From a virus, in the IMG/VR virus record IMGVR_UViG_3300046820_002568, positions 64,001-128,000 of that record: DNA of 64,000 nt. One strand, 5' to 3'. Below the pieces are notes generated by a model. It saw only the letters and a list, made by a program, of their open reading frames with translations. It did no database searches and was not told the origin of the DNA. Both the position numbers and the translations under genes were made by a program. Positions 30,519 to 62,339 of the stretch are shown piece after piece. Positions within the stretch are counted from its first letter, which is position 1; each line of letters opens with the position of its first letter.

Positions 30519-31520
30519 TTACTTTGTTTTTTTACTTTTTTCTTTTCTTGTTAACTTTAAAAATGGTGTGATAAAATAAGTCCATGCGTCGTCCGTTTTT
30601 GGTAGAAACTTAAAAATCCCATCATCCACCATAAACTTGATTAGATTTTTATAACTCCTACCGTCTGTATCTAAGTTCTCTGAGAAGATAAGTTTTACTT
30701 GTTCAATTGCCTCTTCATTCAAAAGAGGGTTAGACAAATCCACAATCTTTTCATTAATCTCATAATACTCTTTTTCAAATATACCTGATTTTGTCTTACC
30801 AGTCAAAATATTTTTTAAAGTTTGGTTATCTTTTTGTTCTTTCAACAATAGTTCAGCCTTTTCAAGAATTTCTTGGTAGGTGACTTTTCTTTCCAAAACT
30901 TCAGGAAAAAATTTAACGAGTGTCTTTTCTCCAAGGGATTGAATACCTTGGATATTATCTGATTTATCCCCCATCATTATCTTCAATGTTAAGACATTTT
31001 CGTGTGGAAATTCAAAATCATTGAACTTGATTTTGTCTCCATTTTCATATGTTGTTCTAAGTGAAGGTGAATAAAGTGAAACTTTTTCAGAAATAAGCTG
31101 AGTTAAATCTTTGTCAGAAGAGAATATTAATTTCTTTTCATTCTCAGATATTCTGCAATACTCAGCCATAAGGTCATCAGCTTCAATTCCTTGGACTTCA
31201 AGTTGTCGGACATACATTTCCTCCAAGTATTGTTTAACTCTGTTTTTTTGGTATAGATATGACAAATAAATTGGTTCTTCAAAAGATAGTTTTCTATTCT
31301 GTTTGTAACTTGGATATAGAATTTCTCTTTTTGACCTTGAGTCTTCTCCGTCCCAAAAAACAATTACCTTATCAAAATTGTGCTCGTCAATAAATTTTCT
31401 AAGAGTATTAATAAAGTGAAAGAGACCCCCAATATGGTTTCCATTGTGGAAATAATCTTTCACACCATGGAAACCAATTTTAAAGAGGTTATTACCGTCT
31501 ACAAGGAGAGTCTTCTTCAC
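30519..31520 (-). CDS. 5'-3' exonuclease / flap endonuclease (T4 RNase H-like)
   Basis: LLVDGNN, VFWDG, YKQNR, EADD, SSDKDLTQL, GDKSDNIQG: FEN/PolI N-terminal motifs. Confidence 0.92.
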   Translation of the reverse strand: MKKTLLVDGNNLFKIGFHGVKDYFHNGNHIGGLFHFINTLRKFIDEHNFDKVIVFWDGEDSRSKREILYPSYKQNRKLSFEEPIYLSYLYQKNRVKQYLEEMYVRQLEVQGIEADDLMAEYCRISENEKKLIFSSDKDLTQLISEKVSLYSPSLRTTYENGDKIKFNDFEFPHENVLTLKIMMGDKSDNIQGIQSLGEKTLVKFFPEVLERKVTYQEILEKAELLLKEQKDNQTLKNILTGKTKSGIFEKEYYEINEKIVDLSNPLLNEEAIEQVKLIFSENLDTDGRSYKNLIKFMVDDGIFKFLPKTDDAWTYFITPFLKLTRKEKSKKTK

Positions 31521-31525
31521 AGATT

Positions 31526-32101
31526 TTAGATTAAATCTTTTGACAAAATTTTGTTACTTTTTTTGATATTTTCTAACTTCCAAAGTGGTTGTAAATTAGT
31601 GTAGTAACATAATTTATACAACTCTTCTTCAGTTTTTGCGGATGATAAAGGTATTATGTGGTCTATATGCCAATCACTTCTGTTATCCCAAGTCATACCA
31701 TCAACGAATTGTTTTTCTAAATGTTCCCTTAATTGTAAGGGAGTACACCCCACAATGTCAAATGTTTTGTTTTTTTTGGTGATATCAAGTTTTTTTAAAT
31801 AAGACCATAATCTACTTCTCATTCCTGATAATAATTTAAATTCAGGTTCATCACTTTTTCTTTTTGTCCAATAACTATTATATTTTTCCCTATTATTTTC
31901 TATCCAAATTTTCTTTTTTCTTGATTGTTCTTCTTTGGTAGATTCATAATATTTTTTTGTTTGTTTTTTATACTCTTCCGGATTTTCTTCTCTCCATTTT
32001 TTCTTTTTTAAAAGATGACAAACTTTACAATTAGCGTGTTTTTTAAAAAATAAACTTTCGCATTTTTCTTCTCCACAATCTTTACAAACTTTGGTTTTCA
32101 T
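31526..32101 (-). CDS. Free-standing HNH homing-type endonuclease with N-terminal Zn finger (copy 1)
   Basis: CKDC...CKVC, basic helical repeats, GMTWDN, WHIDHIIPL...NLQPLW..ENIKKSN. Confidence 0.88.
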   Translation of the reverse strand: MKTKVCKDCGEEKCESLFFKKHANCKVCHLLKKKKWREENPEEYKKQTKKYYESTKEEQSRKKKIWIENNREKYNSYWTKRKSDEPEFKLLSGMRSRLWSYLKKLDITKKNKTFDIVGCTPLQLREHLEKQFVDGMTWDNRSDWHIDHIIPLSSAKTEEELYKLCYYTNLQPLWKLENIKKSNKILSKDLI

Positions 32102-32243
32102 TTTCTACATATTTCCTTAATAGTTTATTAACTAAAGACGAAAGATTAATTGATTTATATTTAAAATATTCAGGTAGGTCGGGGTCAATTGAAACCCCGA
32201 CTTTTACCTTCTTTAAATTTTCTACAATTTTCTTTCTTCCCAT
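32082..32243 (-). CDS. Small ribbon-helix-helix-like DNA-binding protein (53 aa) overlapping the HNH start
   Basis: Manual translation MGRKKIVENLKKVKVGVSIDPDLPEYFKYKSINLSSLVNKLLRKYVENENQSL; alternating KVKVGVSI strand then two helices (NLSSLVNKLL); TATTTAT 5 nt upstream; paralogue at 60784. Confidence 0.75.
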   Translation of the reverse strand: MGRKKIVENLKKVKVGVSIDPDLPEYFKYKSINLSSLVNKLLRKYVENENQSL

Positions 32244-32285
32244 TATTAATAAATATCTGAAAAAGTGGAAAAAATATAACTTTTA

Positions 32286-33269
32286 TTAGTCTTCGGAATC
32301 ATCTTGTGACTCATCCAAAGAATAGTTAGAATCTCCAAGCTTTTGAACCCAATAATCTGAGTAGTCTTTTTTATACTTTTCTAAAGCGTCTTTTGTGTCC
32401 GTAATATATCCATGCGGTACCGCAATAATCTTACCATCTTTATATCCAAGTCCATTTACGTGATTCTTTAAGATAGAAATTTTAGTCCTAATCGCAAAAG
32501 ATACTTTTCTACCATTTTTAGTGGCGTCAATATGGCTTATACCCGCCTTTTTTTGATTACCAAACAAAAATACTAAACTACTAGCCAACCAAATTGCCGT
32601 TCCACCCTTAGCTTGAATCTCGGGTTGTCCAAATGGATTATCAGGTAAAAGTACCCAAGGCTGATTTAAAACAACCAAAGTATTATAATATGGATAATCT
32701 TCTTTTTTTGATTTTGATATTCTTGAGTGTATCCCCATCCCTATTTTATCGGCAAGTACTTTTGCATTGTGCATGCCGCCGCCCTTACCATCAAATGTCA
32801 TTTGGCAAGGAATACTTCCAATACTATCCCACAAAAATAAAATATTATATGGGATGTCACCCTTTTCTTGAGCGTCCAAAATTTGATTAATGAAATCTGT
32901 GGCTTGTTCAATAACATCAAATGAATCATTAAAAATGAACATCCCGTCATACTCTCCGAACTCATTTTTTTCAGCTTGTAGTCCTAGTTCAATAGCATGT
33001 TCCCAACTCCATTTTTTTTCTGTAATAATAAAAACAGGTAGGTGACCTTTTTTCTGAGCGTCAGCGGCTGCTAAAATCATGGCCGTTGTTTTAGATGTAT
33101 TAGAATGTCCTAAAAACATATTAATACCACCTAAAACAGGTCCAGGTAACCCACATGCGTCCATAAAAGATTCTCCACAACTATAAAAAGTTTCTGGCTT
33201 ATATTTTGTTTTGGTGGAGTACTTATCTTTTATAGAATCTAATGAAAATTCTTTTTTCTTGATTGCCAT
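32286..33269 (-). CDS. recA: RecA/UvsX-like recombinase
   Basis: MFLGHSNTSKT (variant Walker A), IITEKKW, FLWDSIGS (Walker B), VLNQ, KGG, KISILKNH. Confidence 0.85.
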   Translation of the reverse strand: MAIKKKEFSLDSIKDKYSTKTKYKPETFYSCGESFMDACGLPGPVLGGINMFLGHSNTSKTTAMILAAADAQKKGHLPVFIITEKKWSWEHAIELGLQAEKNEFGEYDGMFIFNDSFDVIEQATDFINQILDAQEKGDIPYNILFLWDSIGSIPCQMTFDGKGGGMHNAKVLADKIGMGIHSRISKSKKEDYPYYNTLVVLNQPWVLLPDNPFGQPEIQAKGGTAIWLASSLVFLFGNQKKAGISHIDATKNGRKVSFAIRTKISILKNHVNGLGYKDGKIIAVPHGYITDTKDALEKYKKDYSDYWVQKLGDSNYSLDESQDDSED

Positions 33270-58975: not shown

Positions 58976-60745
58976 GTGCAAGAATCTGTTGACATTAGAA
59001 GTATTGAACAGAAAGCCCTACAAATCTTAGAAGAATACAAGGGCTCAAATAACTATATCCTAAAGTTAAAACAACAGCATGCAGTTAACCAAAAATTTAT
59101 CCCAACAAGAGCCCAATGTGATTATATAATTGGGTTCAATCAGGTGGAACCAAAAGTTGCAAAAAAGTGGGTTGATATTGATTCATATTTTGCAAAAAAA
59201 CTTGTGGATGATAATCCATTCATTAAGGAACCTGATAAAATTTATGTTGAAAAACTTCTTGTAGAAAAAGATAAGTCATATCACATTTGGGGAAAGATTT
59301 TTAGTGGGGATACAATTCACGACTTTTGGATTCCTAAAACGGCAATCCATAAAGCAAAAACAAGAACTGCTGAAGTTGATTGGGATAAGTATTCTCACAG
59401 ACCCGCTCTTAATCATCAAAAAGAATGTATCATTAAACTTCTTGAAAATGACAAATACATTGTTGCCGATGATATGGGTCTCGGAAAGACAACCTCAACT
59501 GTTATTTCATCTATTGAAAGTGGGGCCAAAAAGATTTTAATCATCTGTCCCGCAACACTCAAGATAAATTGGAAAAGGGAAATTGCTCTTTATACCGATG
59601 AATCAGTTTACATTGTTGAGAGTAAGAAATGGGAGGAGGGTCACAAATATTATATTATAAATTACGATATAATGAAAAACTTCCACGAACCAAAATCAAA
59701 AGAATCTATTTTAATGAAAGAGAATTTTGATTTGGTTGTAATTGATGAAGCTCACTATATTTCAAACCCTCAAGCTCAGAGAACAAAAATTATAAACGAT
59801 TTGGTTGGAAATTCTGAAAGACTTTGGCTTTTAACAGGAACTCCGATGACCTCAAGACCAATGAATTATTACAATCTTCTAAATTTAATTGAGAGTCCTG
59901 TTGCCGCAAATTGGATGGCATACGCCATTAGATATTGTGCGGGTTATCAGTTCTCAGTTGGAAAAAGAAAAGTTTGGAATGTTAATGGGGCATCAAATCT
60001 CGAAGAATTGAGAGACAGAACTTCCCGTCATGTGATTAGAAGATTAAAAACTGAGGTCTTGGATTTACCTGATAAAATTATTACACCACTTTACCAAAGA
60101 CTAAGTTCAAGATTATATGAAGAACTTATGGGTGAATACTATGACTGGTACACAAACAAAAAAGAAGAGTCAAAATCTTTGACCATTCAGTTCTCAAAAC
60201 TAACAAAAGTTAGACAGGTAATTGCTGAAGAAAAAATTGCGACCACAATTGAGGTTGCGGAAAACATTATTGAACAAGGAAAGAAAGTTATAATCTTTTC
60301 AAACTTTACAGAACCCCTTCAAAAAATTCATGAACATTTTAAAAAACAATCTGTTTATTTGGACGGGTCAACATCAAAACCAGCAAGACAAAAGGCTGTG
60401 GATGACTTCCAAGAAAATGATAAAGTAAAAGTTTTTTGTGGGAATATTAAAGCCGCTGGTGTTGGAATTACATTAACTGCCGCCGAAGCTGTCATTATGA
60501 ATGACCTTTCATTTTTACCTTCAGACCACGCTCAAGCGGAGGATAGGTCTTACAGATACGGACAAAAAAATAATGTTTTGGTCTACTACCCTATTTTCGA
60601 AAATACTTTGGAGATGGAAATTTATAATATTTTATCAAGAAAGAAACAAATCATAGGAACCGTTATGGGGGATACCCAAGATTCGGAGACAGATATAGTT
60701 GAGCAAATACTTAATGAAATTAATTCATACTCAAATAAAAGATAA
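58976..60745 (+). CDS. SNF2-family (SMARCAL1/HARP-like) helicase/translocase
   Basis: ADDMGLGKT, ICPATLKINW, VIDEAH, LTGTP, IRRLK, KVIIFS, AAGVGITLT, QAEDRSYRYGQ. Confidence 0.93.
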   Translation: MQESVDIRSIEQKALQILEEYKGSNNYILKLKQQHAVNQKFIPTRAQCDYIIGFNQVEPKVAKKWVDIDSYFAKKLVDDNPFIKEPDKIYVEKLLVEKDKSYHIWGKIFSGDTIHDFWIPKTAIHKAKTRTAEVDWDKYSHRPALNHQKECIIKLLENDKYIVADDMGLGKTTSTVISSIESGAKKILIICPATLKINWKREIALYTDESVYIVESKKWEEGHKYYIINYDIMKNFHEPKSKESILMKENFDLVVIDEAHYISNPQAQRTKIINDLVGNSERLWLLTGTPMTSRPMNYYNLLNLIESPVAANWMAYAIRYCAGYQFSVGKRKVWNVNGASNLEELRDRTSRHVIRRLKTEVLDLPDKIITPLYQRLSSRLYEELMGEYYDWYTNKKEESKSLTIQFSKLTKVRQVIAEEKIATTIEVAENIIEQGKKVIIFSNFTEPLQKIHEHFKKQSVYLDGSTSKPARQKAVDDFQENDKVKVFCGNIKAAGVGITLTAAEAVIMNDLSFLPSDHAQAEDRSYRYGQKNNVLVYYPIFENTLEMEIYNILSRKKQIIGTVMGDTQDSETDIVEQILNEINSYSNKR

Positions 60746-60783
60746 AAGTATAACTTTTACTATGTATTAAGATATTTATTATT

Positions 60784-60939
60784 ATGGGAAGACCACCAAA
60801 AAAAGAAGAGGATAAAAAAATTAAAATAGGTATTAGTTTAGATAAAAAACTATATAACAAAATAATGAAAGATGGAGGAAAGGTTTCCCGAATAATTGAA
60901 GGAATTATCAATGAATATTGTGAAAACAAAAATTTGTAG
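60784..60939 (+). CDS. Small ribbon-helix-helix-like DNA-binding protein (51 aa) overlapping the HNH start
   Basis: Manual translation MGRPPKKEEDKKIKIGISLDKKLYNKIMKDGGKVSRIIEGIINEYCENKNL; GRP(P)K AT-hook-like start, KIKIGISL strand; paralogue of 32082-32243. Confidence 0.75.
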   Translation: MGRPPKKEEDKKIKIGISLDKKLYNKIMKDGGKVSRIIEGIINEYCENKNL

Positions 60940-61615
60940 TAAGTGTAAATTAATAAAAAATATTAGTGAGTTTGTAAAACACCCTCAAACCAAGGATGGG
61001 TTACAGTGCCGTTGTAATGAATGTCGTAAAATAGAAAAAAAGGAATATTATAAAAAAAACAAAAAATCAATAAACGACAAATCAAAAAAATATAGGGAAG
61101 ATAACACACAAAAACTTATTGATTACTCTAGAAATTATTATAAGAAAAATAAAAAAAAATTACTTGAGGATAAAAAAGAATATTATAAAAAAAATTCTGA
61201 ATTAATTTATAAAAAGTTAGTAATTTATAATAAAAAAAATAAAAAAAAGGTAAATTTTTATAAAAATAATTATAATAAAGAAAAAAAGAAAAGTTCTAAT
61301 TTATTTAAATTAAGAATATTAATGAGAGATAGATTAAACAAATATTTTAAAAACTCATCATTATCTAAAAAAAATACGACCTTTAAAATAATTGGGTGTG
61401 AGCCGAAGCAACTAAAAGAACATCTTGAAAATCAATTCAAAGAAGGGATGACATGGGATAACCACGGACTTTATGGTTGGCATATTGACCACATAATTCC
61501 TTTATCTTCGGCTAAAACTGAAGAAGAAATTATTAAATTATGTCATTATAGTAATTTACAACCACTATGGGCTAAAGACAATTTAAGTAAGGGTTCTAAA
61601 ATCAGCAATAGATGA
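60920..61615 (+). CDS. Free-standing HNH homing-type endonuclease with N-terminal Zn finger (copy 2)
   Basis: CSKC...CNEC, five 15-aa basic repeats, GMTWDN, WHIDHIIPLSSAKTEEE..NLQPLW..DN. GTG 60920 (MKTKIC) aligns with the copy-1 start MKTKVC; ATG 60911 is an alternative. Confidence 0.88.
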   Translation: MKTKICSKCKLIKNISEFVKHPQTKDGLQCRCNECRKIEKKEYYKKNKKSINDKSKKYREDNTQKLIDYSRNYYKKNKKKLLEDKKEYYKKNSELIYKKLVIYNKKNKKKVNFYKNNYNKEKKKSSNLFKLRILMRDRLNKYFKNSSLSKKNTTFKIIGCEPKQLKEHLENQFKEGMTWDNHGLYGWHIDHIIPLSSAKTEEEIIKLCHYSNLQPLWAKDNLSKGSKISNR

Positions 61616-61628
61616 GTATTTATTATTG

Positions 61629-62339
61629 ATGAATAGACTTGAATTAATTTCAGAAAGTTTAGTTAAACAAATTAATGGTGATGAACCAAATGAAGTAAAA
61701 TTCTTTATCAATGAGGCAAAGACCATTGGCATTGATAAACTTCCATATTCATATTCCGCAATTAGAAGATTCATTGACCCTGAGACAATGAAGATTCATT
61801 ATAGAAGACATTACAAAACTTATGTTAAAAAATTAAATTCGGCTCTCCGTAAAAAAGATTATGGAGATGTGGAACTTGAGGATATTGTAAAACAAATTTC
61901 AAAGTATAGTACGGATATTAGAAACAATGCTGGTGGGGCATTTAATCACGCTCTTTTTTGGAAAATGCTTTCACCAAAATCTCAAAATCCATCGGGGGCA
62001 GTTTTAGATAGAATCAAAACTCAATACGGAACATTTAGAAGTTTTAGGACAAAATTTGAACAAGCCGCAAAATCAAGATTTGGTTCGGGTTGGGTTTGGT
62101 TAGTTGCAAAAGAAAATGGAAGTCTAAAAATAATGACAACACCAAATCAAGATAATCCACTTATGAATATCATATCACAAGGAGGGTTTCCAATTTTAGG
62201 ACTTGATTTATGGGAACACGCTTACTACTTAAAGTACCAAAATAAAAGAGATGAGTATATTCAAAATTTTTGGGAAGTAGTTAATTGGGATTTTGTTAAT
62301 CAATTATATATTCAAAAAACAAGCAAGAAAAATAATTAG
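61629..62339 (+). CDS. sodA: Fe/Mn superoxide dismutase, Mn-type signature, with N-terminal extension
   Basis: LPYSY, IHYRRHYKTY, NNAGGAFNHALFW, FGSGWVWL, TPNQDNP, LDLWEHAYY: all four metal ligands present; GG and QD residues suggest Mn. Confidence 0.93.
   Translation: MNRLELISESLVKQINGDEPNEVKFFINEAKTIGIDKLPYSYSAIRRFIDPETMKIHYRRHYKTYVKKLNSALRKKDYGDVELEDIVKQISKYSTDIRNNAGGAFNHALFWKMLSPKSQNPSGAVLDRIKTQYGTFRSFRTKFEQAAKSRFGSGWVWLVAKENGSLKIMTTPNQDNPLMNIISQGGFPILGLDLWEHAYYLKYQNKRDEYIQNFWEVVNWDFVNQLYIQKTSKKNN

What the first reader, a model, noticed from the sequence alone, without database searches (positions are those of the whole stretch)
31526..32284. Two-gene RHH + HNH mobile cassette present twice (also 60744-61615) with an identical 20-nt gene overlap
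Seen: both free-standing HNH genes are preceded by an unannotated 51-53-aa ORF (MGR..KK(V/I)K(V/I)G(V/I)S(I/L)D......S..(V/I)...(L/I)..Y.EN...L*). Each small ORF has TATTTAT 4-5 nt before its ATG and overlaps the nuclease start by exactly 20 nt (ATGAAAACCAAAGTTTGTAA vs GTGAAAACAAAAATTTGTAG). The copies are on opposite strands in unrelated contexts (recA/exonuclease and SNF2/SOD). Known: T4-type homing endonucleases are controlled by late promoters, hairpins or self-repression, not usually by a dedicated partner gene; restriction-modification C proteins and RHH antitoxins control toxic nucleases. Inference: a self-contained selfish unit of promoter, RHH controller and translationally coupled nuclease. 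It could be a regulated homing element or a toxin-antitoxin-like/phage-exclusion module, easily missed because the small gene is under gene-calling cut-offs.
Basis: partly seen in the sequence, partly recalled or inferred. Interest (0 to 1): 0.8.

Follow-up and report, generated by a model that had tools for sequence, protein, structure and literature searches.

The report
Portable RHH gene partnering phage homing endonucleases
A roughly 50-residue DNA-binding (ribbon-helix-helix) gene, with its own conserved upstream DNA motif, travels with and overlaps selfish homing-endonuclease genes of several enzyme classes in uncultured freshwater phages, and is probably their built-in expression controller.

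Summary
Both small ORFs (32082-32243 minus, 60784-60939 plus) are real genes under purifying selection (dN/dS about 0.1). They belong to a compact, virus-only ribbon-helix-helix (RHH) family that Pfam almost entirely misses.

- **Third copy:** the same phage genome has another copy outside the window. It overlaps a LAGLIDADG endonuclease, not an HNH.
- **Linkage:** of 121 informative metagenomic RHH places, 117 have a downstream ORF starting inside the RHH 3' end (overlap 11-29 nt). Cargo is 69 HNH, 42 LAGLIDADG, 2 truncated HNH, 2 NUMOD3/TnsA-like and 2 intein-bearing C5 methylase.
- **Mobility:** about 66 of 80 nearest relatives have an empty recA-like/FEN junction. All 80 have an empty SNF2/SOD junction. 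Decayed copies exist.
- **Upstream DNA:** three T-rich boxes phased 10 bp apart lie just before the RHH start in 29 independent contexts. In this genome the composite motif occurs only at the three cassettes.

Best reading (inferred, not shown): the RHH binds these boxes and represses its own operon, with nuclease translation tied to RHH translation, much like restriction-modification C proteins or Arc in IS605. An antitoxin role is disfavoured: the RHH has no neutralising tail, the nuclease classes vary, and intact HNH genes exist without it. The TATTTAT "promoter" is unverified, and the 20-nt overlap is not fixed.

The parts
32244..32285 (-). Cassette A upstream control region, between the recA-like stop (32286-32288) and the RHH ATG. 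It holds the box CACTTTTT at 32267-32260 and GATATTTAT at 32257-32249. Only two phased T-boxes are present here: one 10-nt unit is missing relative to most family members.
32082..32243 (-). RHH-A, 53 aa. It has an N-terminal MGR(K/P)KK arm, a beta-strand KKVKVGVSID and two helices.
   Evidence: Pfam CcdA N-terminal RHH 25 bits against a cut-off of 22.4. AF2 pLDDT 84.9 with helices 23-29 and 34-49. The best Foldseek rows are RHH proteins but not significant. dN/dS against L008 and L009 is 0.065 and 0.02.
31526..32101 (-). HNH-A, 191 aa: N-terminal four-Cys finger, K/Y/N-rich repeats, C-terminal HNH motif (WHIDHIIPLS...NLQPLW). Its ATG lies 20 nt inside the RHH-A 3' end. Its last codons read into DNA that also occurs at empty sites.
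   Evidence: phrog_1035 E 5e-21; alignment A3
31556..32285 (-). Approximate extent of insertion A (about 730 bp) between the recA-like gene and the FEN/5'-3' exonuclease gene.
   Evidence: About 66 of 80 nearest relatives have only 14-39 nt here. The empty site of L159 (recA-like 97% identical) matches 31555-31539 base for base over 17 nt.
60746..60783 (+). Cassette B upstream control region: ACTTTT at 60753-60758, a middle T-rich box, and GATATTTAT at 60771-60779.
60784..60939 (+). RHH-B, 51 aa.
   Evidence: 32% identical to RHH-A. Member of the same profile family. Weak PHROG Arc-like hit.
60920..61615 (+). HNH-B, 231 aa from GTG 60920. The start is chosen by homology with relatives that have ATG at the same place. 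Its last 15 nt plus TGA are the former 3' end of the SNF2 gene.
60721..61602 (+). Insertion B (882 bp), placed inside the last five codons of the SNF2-family helicase gene. AAAT microhomology at both junctions makes the position ambiguous by 4 nt. The cassette's left end gives the helicase a new short tail and stop codon.
   Evidence: All 80 nearest relatives lack it. Of the 76 whose locus reaches the SOD gene, 47 have SNF2 stop to SOD start 10-12 nt apart, 20 have 17-66 nt, and 9 of the most distant have 384-402 nt with no RHH or HNH. Junction comparison with L239-L246.

Best explanation
Each locus is a mobile two-gene homing cassette. It consists of about 40 nt of conserved upstream DNA, a roughly 50-aa ribbon-helix-helix gene, and a free-standing homing endonuclease whose start codon lies inside the RHH 3' end.

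Shown:
- The unit is inserted as a block at intergenic or gene-end sites that are empty in close relatives, and it decays like other homing elements.
- The RHH family is virus-only and under purifying selection.
- The same 5' module is joined to nucleases of unrelated folds.

Inferred:
- RHH dimers, helped by an invariant AT-hook-like MGRP arm, bind cooperatively to two or three T-rich boxes. The boxes are spaced one helical turn apart and end 5-9 nt before the RHH ATG.
- Binding shuts off transcription into the cassette, whether it comes from the cassette's own promoter or by read-through from the upstream phage gene.
- Nuclease synthesis depends on ribosomes that have translated the RHH (termination-reinitiation across the 11-29 nt overlap).
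- The result would be a brief, self-limiting pulse of a potentially harmful nuclease that works in any genomic context.
For: Gene reality:
- At least 492 clusters at 90% identity and 176 clusters at 50% identity.
- Median dN/dS 0.115.

RHH fold:
- Pfam CcdA RHH part above its cut-off.
- SIRV1 SvtR full-length match at E 0.03.
- AF2 pLDDT 85 with the helix pattern expected of an RHH.
- The best Foldseek rows are 3ft7, StnY, CopG-DNA, CdbA, AmrZ and TacA.

Linkage:
- 117 of 121 informative RHH places have an overlapping downstream ORF, and 111 of these are intact HNH or LAGLIDADG genes (Pfam).
- All three homing endonuclease genes detectable in this genome have the partner.

Mobility:
- Empty sites.
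- At least 29 distinct upstream contexts.
- Decay states: L021 (HNH internally deleted), L211 and L101 (RHH deleted), L181 (scar).

Operator-like DNA:
- T-blocks at -30..-27, -20..-18 and -10..-8 are conserved across the 29 contexts.
- Box spacing is bimodal at 10-11 or 18-21 nt, with almost nothing between.
- The motif is cassette-specific in the genome.

Matching protein conservation:
- G2, R3, K11, K12, K14, G16 and D20 are invariant. These include the outward-facing strand residues.
- A single conserved DNA target would explain this, and the only conserved DNA is the cassette's own upstream region.

Precedent:
- Arc RHH represses IS605 promoters (bioRxiv 10.64898/2026.09.24.754181).
Against: - No binding, transcription or translation data exist.
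- No recognisable promoter was found. The sigma-70 scan gives only weak hits whose -10 hexamer would overlap the ATG itself.
- Phased T-tracts could be a bent-DNA promoter element rather than an operator.
- Structural similarity scores are not significant for so small a protein, and the strand is not assigned in the monomer model.
- 35 of 80 HNH relatives lack the RHH, so control is dispensable.
- 81 of the 162 RHH places that could be clustered by far-upstream DNA come from one hot spot in one phage lineage, so raw counts overstate independence.
Confidence: 0.6

Rival explanations
1. Toxin-antitoxin-like pair. The RHH protein binds and neutralises the nuclease, and the pair acts as an addiction or phage-exclusion module.
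For: The best Pfam hits are the RHH parts of the CcdA and BrnA antitoxins. The small upstream gene overlapping a harmful enzyme gene is the classic type II layout.
Against: - The match covers only CcdA positions 1-40, the DNA-binding part. At 49-55 aa there is no room for a toxin-binding tail.
- The partners have unrelated folds: HNH, four LAGLIDADG architectures and NUMOD3/TnsA-like.
- Intact HNH genes persist where the RHH was deleted (L101, L211), and in 35 of 80 relatives.
- No relative was found in 185,579 prokaryote genomes.
- No fused forms exist.
Confidence: 0.07
2. The RHH is a positive or timing controller, as many restriction-modification C proteins are. It activates the operon at low concentration and represses at high concentration, or acts mainly as a roadblock insulating the nuclease from read-through.
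For: There are two or three phased boxes, as with the multiple C-boxes of C proteins (own knowledge). No terminator lies between the upstream phage genes and the cassettes, so read-through is likely.
Against: Nothing distinguishes this from simple repression with the data in hand. RHH-less HNH genes are expressed, if at all, without an activator.
Confidence: 0.15
3. The RHH is an accessory DNA-binding subunit for homing. It recruits the nuclease to its target, or protects the cassette-bearing allele from cutting.
For: It is a DNA-binding fold with invariant DNA-facing residues, and it is always co-expressed with the nuclease.
Against: - The insertion sites differ widely (at least 29 contexts) while the DNA-reading residues are invariant, so it cannot specify the different targets.
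- The nucleases carry their own DNA-binding modules: Zn finger, NUMOD3, LAGLIDADG saddle.
- No RHH-nuclease fusions exist.
Confidence: 0.08
4. The RHH is an ordinary phage gene, and homing endonucleases merely home next to it.
For: Different nuclease genes sit behind nearly identical RHH genes: RHH pairs at least 90% identical carry HNH proteins only 50% identical at the median. A few RHH genes stand without an intact nuclease (L021, L022, L324).
Against: At both window sites the RHH is absent whenever the nuclease is absent: about 66 of 80 and 80 of 80 relatives. The orphan RHH genes sit beside visible nuclease remnants.
Confidence: 0.05

Closest known systems
Controller (C) proteins of type II restriction-modification systems (C.PvuII, C.AhdI, C.Esp1396I; own knowledge, and review PMC3874152 listed)
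   Same: A small DNA-binding protein gene sits immediately upstream of a nuclease gene and commonly overlaps it. Operator boxes lie just upstream of its own start. It is part of a mobile selfish unit whose nuclease must be kept in check.
   Different: C proteins are helix-turn-helix, not RHH. Their partner is a restriction enzyme with a protecting methylase. They live in bacterial genomes and plasmids. This family is virus-only and partners homing endonucleases.
Arc ribbon-helix-helix repressor of IS605-family transposons (Moon et al., bioRxiv 10.64898/2026.09.24.754181)
   Same: A tiny RHH encoded inside a selfish element represses the element's own promoter. The authors note in passing that related Arc genes lie next to homing endonuclease genes, and that such microproteins escape annotation.
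   Different: Their elements are bacterial transposons with TnpA and TnpB. No overlap or coupling geometry, phage cassettes or phased T-boxes are described. Whether this family falls in their set of 8,024 Arc-like proteins was not testable here.
RHH antitoxins of type II toxin-antitoxin systems (CcdA, BrnA, TacA)
   Same: Same fold for the DNA-binding part, and the best Pfam and some Foldseek matches. The gene sits upstream of a harmful enzyme.
   Different: No C-terminal neutralising segment, partners of unrelated folds, nuclease viable without it, and absent from prokaryote genomes.
Free-standing homing endonucleases of T4-like phages (seg and mob genes) and I-TevI autorepression (own knowledge)
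   Same: Intergenic insertion between conserved genes, presence/absence polymorphism among relatives, decay by deletion, and a need to limit expression.
   Different: Known control is by late promoters, RNA structure, or the nuclease's own DNA-binding domain acting as repressor, not by a dedicated partner gene.
SvtR (protein 56B) of Sulfolobus virus SIRV1, PDB 2kel
   Same: The closest solved structure by sequence profile, with a full-length match at E 0.03. It is a viral RHH transcription repressor of similar size.
   Different: It is an archaeal virus regulator of structural genes, not linked to a nuclease. The similarity is marginal.

Membership tests
Ribbon-helix-helix (MetJ/Arc/CopG) superfamily | About 45-residue beta-alpha-alpha unit recognisable by sequence profile | tested here: met
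   Copy A scores 25 bits on the Pfam CcdA RHH part, positions 1-40, against a cut-off of 22.4. The family profile matches SvtR 2kel over its full length at E 0.03. However, only 4 of 103 members hit any Pfam model.
Ribbon-helix-helix (MetJ/Arc/CopG) superfamily | Predicted fold: N-terminal strand followed by two helices, resembling solved RHH proteins | tested here: inconclusive
   AF2 gives pLDDT 84.9, an extended segment at 11-20, and helices at 23-29 and 34-49. The top Foldseek rows are RHH proteins, but E is at least 0.75 and TM 0.4-0.56.
Ribbon-helix-helix (MetJ/Arc/CopG) superfamily | Obligate dimer forming a two-stranded sheet that reads the major groove | not testable with these tools
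   Only monomer prediction was available.
Free-standing homing endonuclease gene | Encodes a nuclease of a homing family (HNH, LAGLIDADG, GIY-YIG, PD-(D/E)xK) | tested here: met
   HNH motif and phrog_1035. LAGLIDADG_3 E 1e-9 for the third copy. Relatives.
Free-standing homing endonuclease gene | Present or absent at the same site among close relatives, with decayed copies | tested here: met
   About 66 of 80 relatives are empty at recA-like/FEN and 80 of 80 lack the cassette at SNF2/SOD. Remnants are seen in L021, L181 and L211.
Free-standing homing endonuclease gene | Cuts the cassette-free allele near the insertion site | not testable with these tools
   Needs an enzyme assay.
Type II toxin-antitoxin system | Antitoxin has a toxin-binding segment besides its DNA-binding domain | tested here: not met
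   Family length is 49-55 aa and the RHH fills it. The tail after the conserved EY varies in length and is dictated by the overlapping nuclease frame.
Type II toxin-antitoxin system | Toxin gene is not maintained without its antitoxin | tested here: not met
   35 of 80 intact HNH relatives lack the RHH, including deletion derivatives at the same site.
Restriction-modification C-protein control | Helix-turn-helix controller with C-box operators, linked to a restriction enzyme and methylase | tested here: not met
   The fold is RHH, not HTH. No methylase is part of the unit in the window. The resemblance is functional only.

The most novel reading that the evidence does not exclude
A dedicated, portable control module, made of phased T-box operator, AT-hook-armed RHH and an overlapping start codon, has been reused as a common front end by at least three catalytic classes of homing endonuclease in uncultured low-GC freshwater phages (contigs up to 321 kb, some of jumbo size). 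Nuclease genes are swapped behind it. It would be the homing-endonuclease counterpart of the restriction-modification C protein: a context-independent negative-feedback circuit that lets a selfish nuclease land anywhere without harming its carrier.
Probability: 0.45. Interest if true: 0.75.

Novelty: new variant of a known kind. Interest (0 to 1): 0.66.

Why it matters
How free-standing homing endonucleases keep their expression low enough to be tolerated is known for only a handful of T4 genes, and never through a partner protein. Here a single small gene family, invisible to Pfam and absent from the 50,697 GenBank phage records searched, accompanies HNH, LAGLIDADG and PD-(D/E)xK-type nucleases in at least 29 genomic contexts.

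If it is an autorepressor, three things follow:
- It gives a general answer to how these elements stay portable.
- It gives a sequence signature (RHH plus T-boxes) for finding unannotated homing cassettes in metagenomes.
- It provides a compact, self-limiting nuclease expression module that could be tested directly.

It also adds a phage example to the emerging theme that tiny RHH repressors police selfish DNA, as with Arc in IS605.

Tried and rejected
- **DNA search of GenBank phages:** blastn with both loci found only the HNH catalytic part in other phages. The Flavobacterium 'elemo' phage homologues have no RHH.
- **Protein search of GenBank phages:** tblastn of the third RHH copy found nothing.
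- **Prokaryote genomes:** a scan of 185,579 genomes with the family profile found no relative.
- **General phage promoter:** rejected. The motif is found only at the cassettes.
- **Sigma-70 promoter:** the only hits at the cassettes are weak, not above shuffles, and would start transcription inside the ORF.
- **Shine-Dalgarno reading of TATTTAT:** rejected. Only 3 of 32 long ORFs in the window have such a motif, so this phage does not rely on it.
- **RHH-nuclease fusion by +1 frameshift:** rejected. The nuclease start codon is conserved at a fixed place. The 8 longer database proteins are miscalled starts or remnants, not fusions.
- **C5 methylase as a true fourth cargo class:** doubtful. In L012 the methylase's own start follows a 19-codon leftover beginning METK, and the same site holds an RHH-less methylase in L238. 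This looks like cargo replacement at a hot spot.
- **Empty site for the third cassette:** not found. The upstream 271-aa gene has no relatives in the viral collection.
- **The look-up of encoding contigs:** Neighbourhoods of the database proteins were surveyed through the search for related loci instead.
- **Correction:** my first overlap tally was wrong for loci with an early in-frame TAA. It is corrected.

Full report
**1. The observation**

The window is bases 64001-128000 of a 139,882-bp IMG/VR virus record. CheckV estimates it at about 48% complete. GC content is 32.7% and Shine-Dalgarno motifs are almost absent.

- Copy A: a 53-aa ORF at 32082..32243 (-) ends 20 nt inside the 191-aa HNH ORF at 31526..32101 (-).
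- Copy B: a 51-aa ORF at 60784..60939 (+) ends 20 nt inside the HNH ORF, if that ORF starts at GTG 60920. Relatives have ATG at exactly that position, which supports the GTG start.

The small proteins are 32% identical. The HNH proteins are 63% identical over their catalytic C-terminal part. GATATTTATTA occurs exactly twice in the window, both times 2-3 nt before the small-ORF ATG.

**2. A third copy with a different nuclease**

A search of the whole genome record with small ORF A found a third homologue outside the window (G000:C1:19427-19570, locus L004, 52 aa). It overlaps by 23 nt a 267-aa ORF that is a LAGLIDADG endonuclease (PF14528, E 1e-9).

The composite motif ACTTTT-N(2-16)-ATATTTAT occurs three times in the 139.9-kb record, each time in front of one of the three small genes. 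The record has no other detectable HNH-family, LAGLIDADG, GIY-YIG or HNH_3 gene. All three of its homing-type nucleases therefore have the partner.

**3. The small ORF is a real gene of an RHH family**

- A profile of the three copies finds at least 492 clusters at 90% identity among 5.8 billion proteins. The search was candidate-limited. Nearly all hits are 49-57 aa and unnamed.
- An exhaustive profile search of 1.84 billion representatives finds 176 clusters at 50% identity.
- Over the first 44 codons, upstream of the overlap, median dN/dS is 0.115. Against its nearest relatives copy A has dN 0.01-0.02 and dS 0.3-0.5.
- Copy A scores above the Pfam cut-off on the RHH part of CcdA, but only 4 of 103 family members hit any Pfam model.
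- The family profile matches the viral RHH repressor SvtR (PDB 2kel) over its full length at E 0.03.
- AlphaFold2 with a 103-sequence alignment gives pLDDT 84.9: an extended N-terminal segment and helices at 23-29 and 34-49.
- The best Foldseek rows are RHH proteins (3ft7, StnY, CopG-DNA complexes, CdbA, AmrZ, TacA), but none is statistically significant for so short a chain.
- Invariant positions are G2, R3, K11, K12, K14, G16, D20, L23 and S35. The strand reads KK-V-K-V-G-V-S-I-D, so K12, K14, G16 and S18 alternate with hydrophobic residues and should face DNA. This last point is inference from the known RHH architecture.
- The invariant MGRP start resembles an AT-hook core (own knowledge).
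- The family was not found in 50,697 GenBank phage records or in 185,579 prokaryote genomes. One database member does carry an NCBI name from an uncultured Caudovirales phage.

**4. Linkage to nucleases**

I fetched loci by the RHH alone, so the sample is not biased towards any cargo.
- Of 126 RHH places, 121 have enough downstream DNA to judge. Of these, 117 have an ORF of at least 100 aa that starts inside the RHH 3' end.
- The cargo breaks down as 69 HNH, 42 LAGLIDADG, 2 NUMOD3 plus TnsA-like (PD-(D/E)xK), 2 C5 methylase carrying an intein, and 2 truncated HNH.
- The LAGLIDADG cargo comes in four architectures. One has the HNH family's Zn-finger N-terminus.
- The four exceptions include L021 and L022, where an HNH remnant is visible, and L324.
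- The nuclease start codon sits at a fixed place just after the RHH's conserved EY. The RHH stop varies, giving overlaps of 11 (34 places), 14, 17, 20 (48 places), 23, 26 or 29 nt.
- The longer-protein search found no RHH-nuclease fusions.

The reverse test fetched loci through HNH catalytic motifs only. Of the 80 nearest relatives, 45 have the RHH ending in the HNH start and 35 do not. The RHH-less ones include the cultured Flavobacterium 'elemo' phages.

**5. Mobility**

The recA-like gene's 80 nearest relatives are 84-97% identical.
- In about 66 of them the recA-like stop and the FEN start are 14-39 nt apart.
- Six to eight carry RHH plus HNH (765-874 nt).
- One carries HNH alone behind a remnant of the upstream motif (L211).
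- One has a 75-nt scar made of that remnant plus the HNH 3' end (L181).
- Two carry unrelated methyltransferases.

In L021 the RHH is intact, while the HNH has an internal deletion joining its first 21 codons to its last 17. In L101 the recA-like stop runs straight into the nuclease start as TAAAAATGGAAAC. This is what a deletion between the TAAAAA at the cassette's left edge and the TAAAAATGG at the RHH 3' end would give.

At the SNF2/SOD junction all 80 nearest relatives (70-96% identical) lack the cassette. Of the 76 whose locus reaches the SOD gene, 47 have the two genes 10-12 nt apart, 20 have 17-66 nt, and 9 of the most distant have 384-402 nt with no RHH or HNH.

Comparison with these relatives shows where copy B landed.
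- Copy B sits inside the last five codons of the helicase gene.
- HNH-B now ends in the helicase's former ISNR-stop.
- The helicase has acquired a new short tail and stop codon from the cassette's left end.
- AAAT is present at both junctions.

Clustering the DNA 60-260 nt upstream of 162 RHH places gives 29 unrelated contexts, and 81 places belong to the single recA-like hot spot.

**6. The upstream DNA**

Across the 29 independent contexts the only conserved DNA is the 35 nt before the ATG.
- T-blocks lie at -30..-27 (usually preceded by CAC), at -20..-18, and at -10..-8 within (G/T)ATATTTAT.
- The distance between the first and last boxes is 18-21 nt in 75 of 104 distinct sequences and 10-11 nt in 13, with almost nothing between. 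That is two helical turns or one.
- Copy A belongs to the short class and has lost one unit.
- No terminator precedes either cassette, and no convincing sigma-70 promoter is present.

**7. Interpretation**

The structural conclusion is secure: this is a mobile cassette made of control region, RHH gene and homing endonuclease.

The function is inferred. The RHH's DNA-facing residues are invariant while the insertion targets and nuclease folds vary, and the only invariant DNA is the cassette's own upstream region. The simplest reading is therefore that the RHH binds the phased boxes and represses transcription entering the cassette. Nuclease translation would then be tied to RHH translation through the overlap.

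This matches how restriction-modification C proteins work (own knowledge), and how the Arc RHH represses IS605 promoters (bioRxiv 10.64898/2026.09.24.754181). That preprint also notes in passing that Arc-like genes lie beside homing endonuclease genes. Three full-text searches found no paper describing a phage RHH-homing endonuclease cassette.

An antitoxin role is unlikely for four reasons:
- the RHH has no neutralising tail;
- the partners have unrelated folds;
- nucleases persist without the RHH;
- the family is absent from cellular genomes.

A targeting role is unlikely because one invariant DNA-reading surface cannot specify many different targets. The idea that the RHH is a resident phage gene that nucleases home beside is contradicted by the empty sites.

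**8. Cargo swapping**

RHH proteins that are at least 90% identical are joined to HNH proteins with a median of only 50% identity (76% over the catalytic 90 aa). One RHH subtype is found with both HNH and several LAGLIDADG architectures. The 5' module is thus much more stable than what follows it. Either recombination at the junction or fast evolution of the nuclease's DNA-binding middle would explain this.

**9. Verdict**

The finding is real, extends well beyond the window, and is not described as such in the literature I could search. It is a new variant of known kinds: a free-standing homing endonuclease plus a small RHH repressor of selfish DNA. The mechanism is plausible but untested.

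Noticed in passing
window 31520-32288, and loci L199, L238, L012: The recA-like/FEN junction is a cargo hot spot. Besides RHH-HNH cassettes, relatives carry an FkbM-type methyltransferase (L199), a C5 DNA methylase (L238), or a C5 methylase interrupted by an intein with a LAGLIDADG domain (L012, L014).
   Followed up: partly
window 31539-31555 versus L159: The 'empty' site of the closest relative contains 17 nt identical to the last codons of HNH-A (SNKILSK). Either the empty sites are deletion scars, or the nuclease ORF ends in recruited flank DNA as copy B does. Unresolved.
   Followed up: partly
window 60717-60745: Insertion B rewrote the C-terminus of the SNF2-family helicase. The last five codons are replaced by a new short tail and a stop codon supplied by the cassette. 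The cassette's left end begins with stop codons (TAA.AAAAGT) in several contexts.
   Followed up: yes
window 31850-32020 and 61030-61300: The middle of the HNH proteins is a variable number of K/Y/N-rich repeats of about 15 aa between the Zn finger and the HNH domain. Lengths across relatives range from 191 to 266 aa (alignment A3).
   Followed up: partly
L330, L332, L333: A chimeric 281-aa nuclease has the HNH family's N-terminal CxxC...CxxC finger joined to a LAGLIDADG domain, behind the same RHH. This is evidence of domain shuffling among these endonucleases.
   Followed up: partly
window 61626-62339: The phage carries an Fe/Mn-type superoxide dismutase-like gene directly after the SNF2 helicase. 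It is conserved in 76 of the 80 relatives; the other four loci end before the gene, or no SOD match was found in them. In many relatives it is fused or extended to about 500 aa.
   Followed up: no
whole window: Only 3 of 32 long ORFs have a Shine-Dalgarno-like motif, and GC is 32.7%. This fits a host such as Bacteroidota that does not use such motifs. The host was not established.
   Followed up: no
L324 versus L325: Identical RHH genes are followed either by a LAGLIDADG gene (L325) or, after a 134-nt gap, by a Dam-type N6-adenine methylase (L324). This looks like another orphaned RHH after nuclease loss.
   Followed up: no
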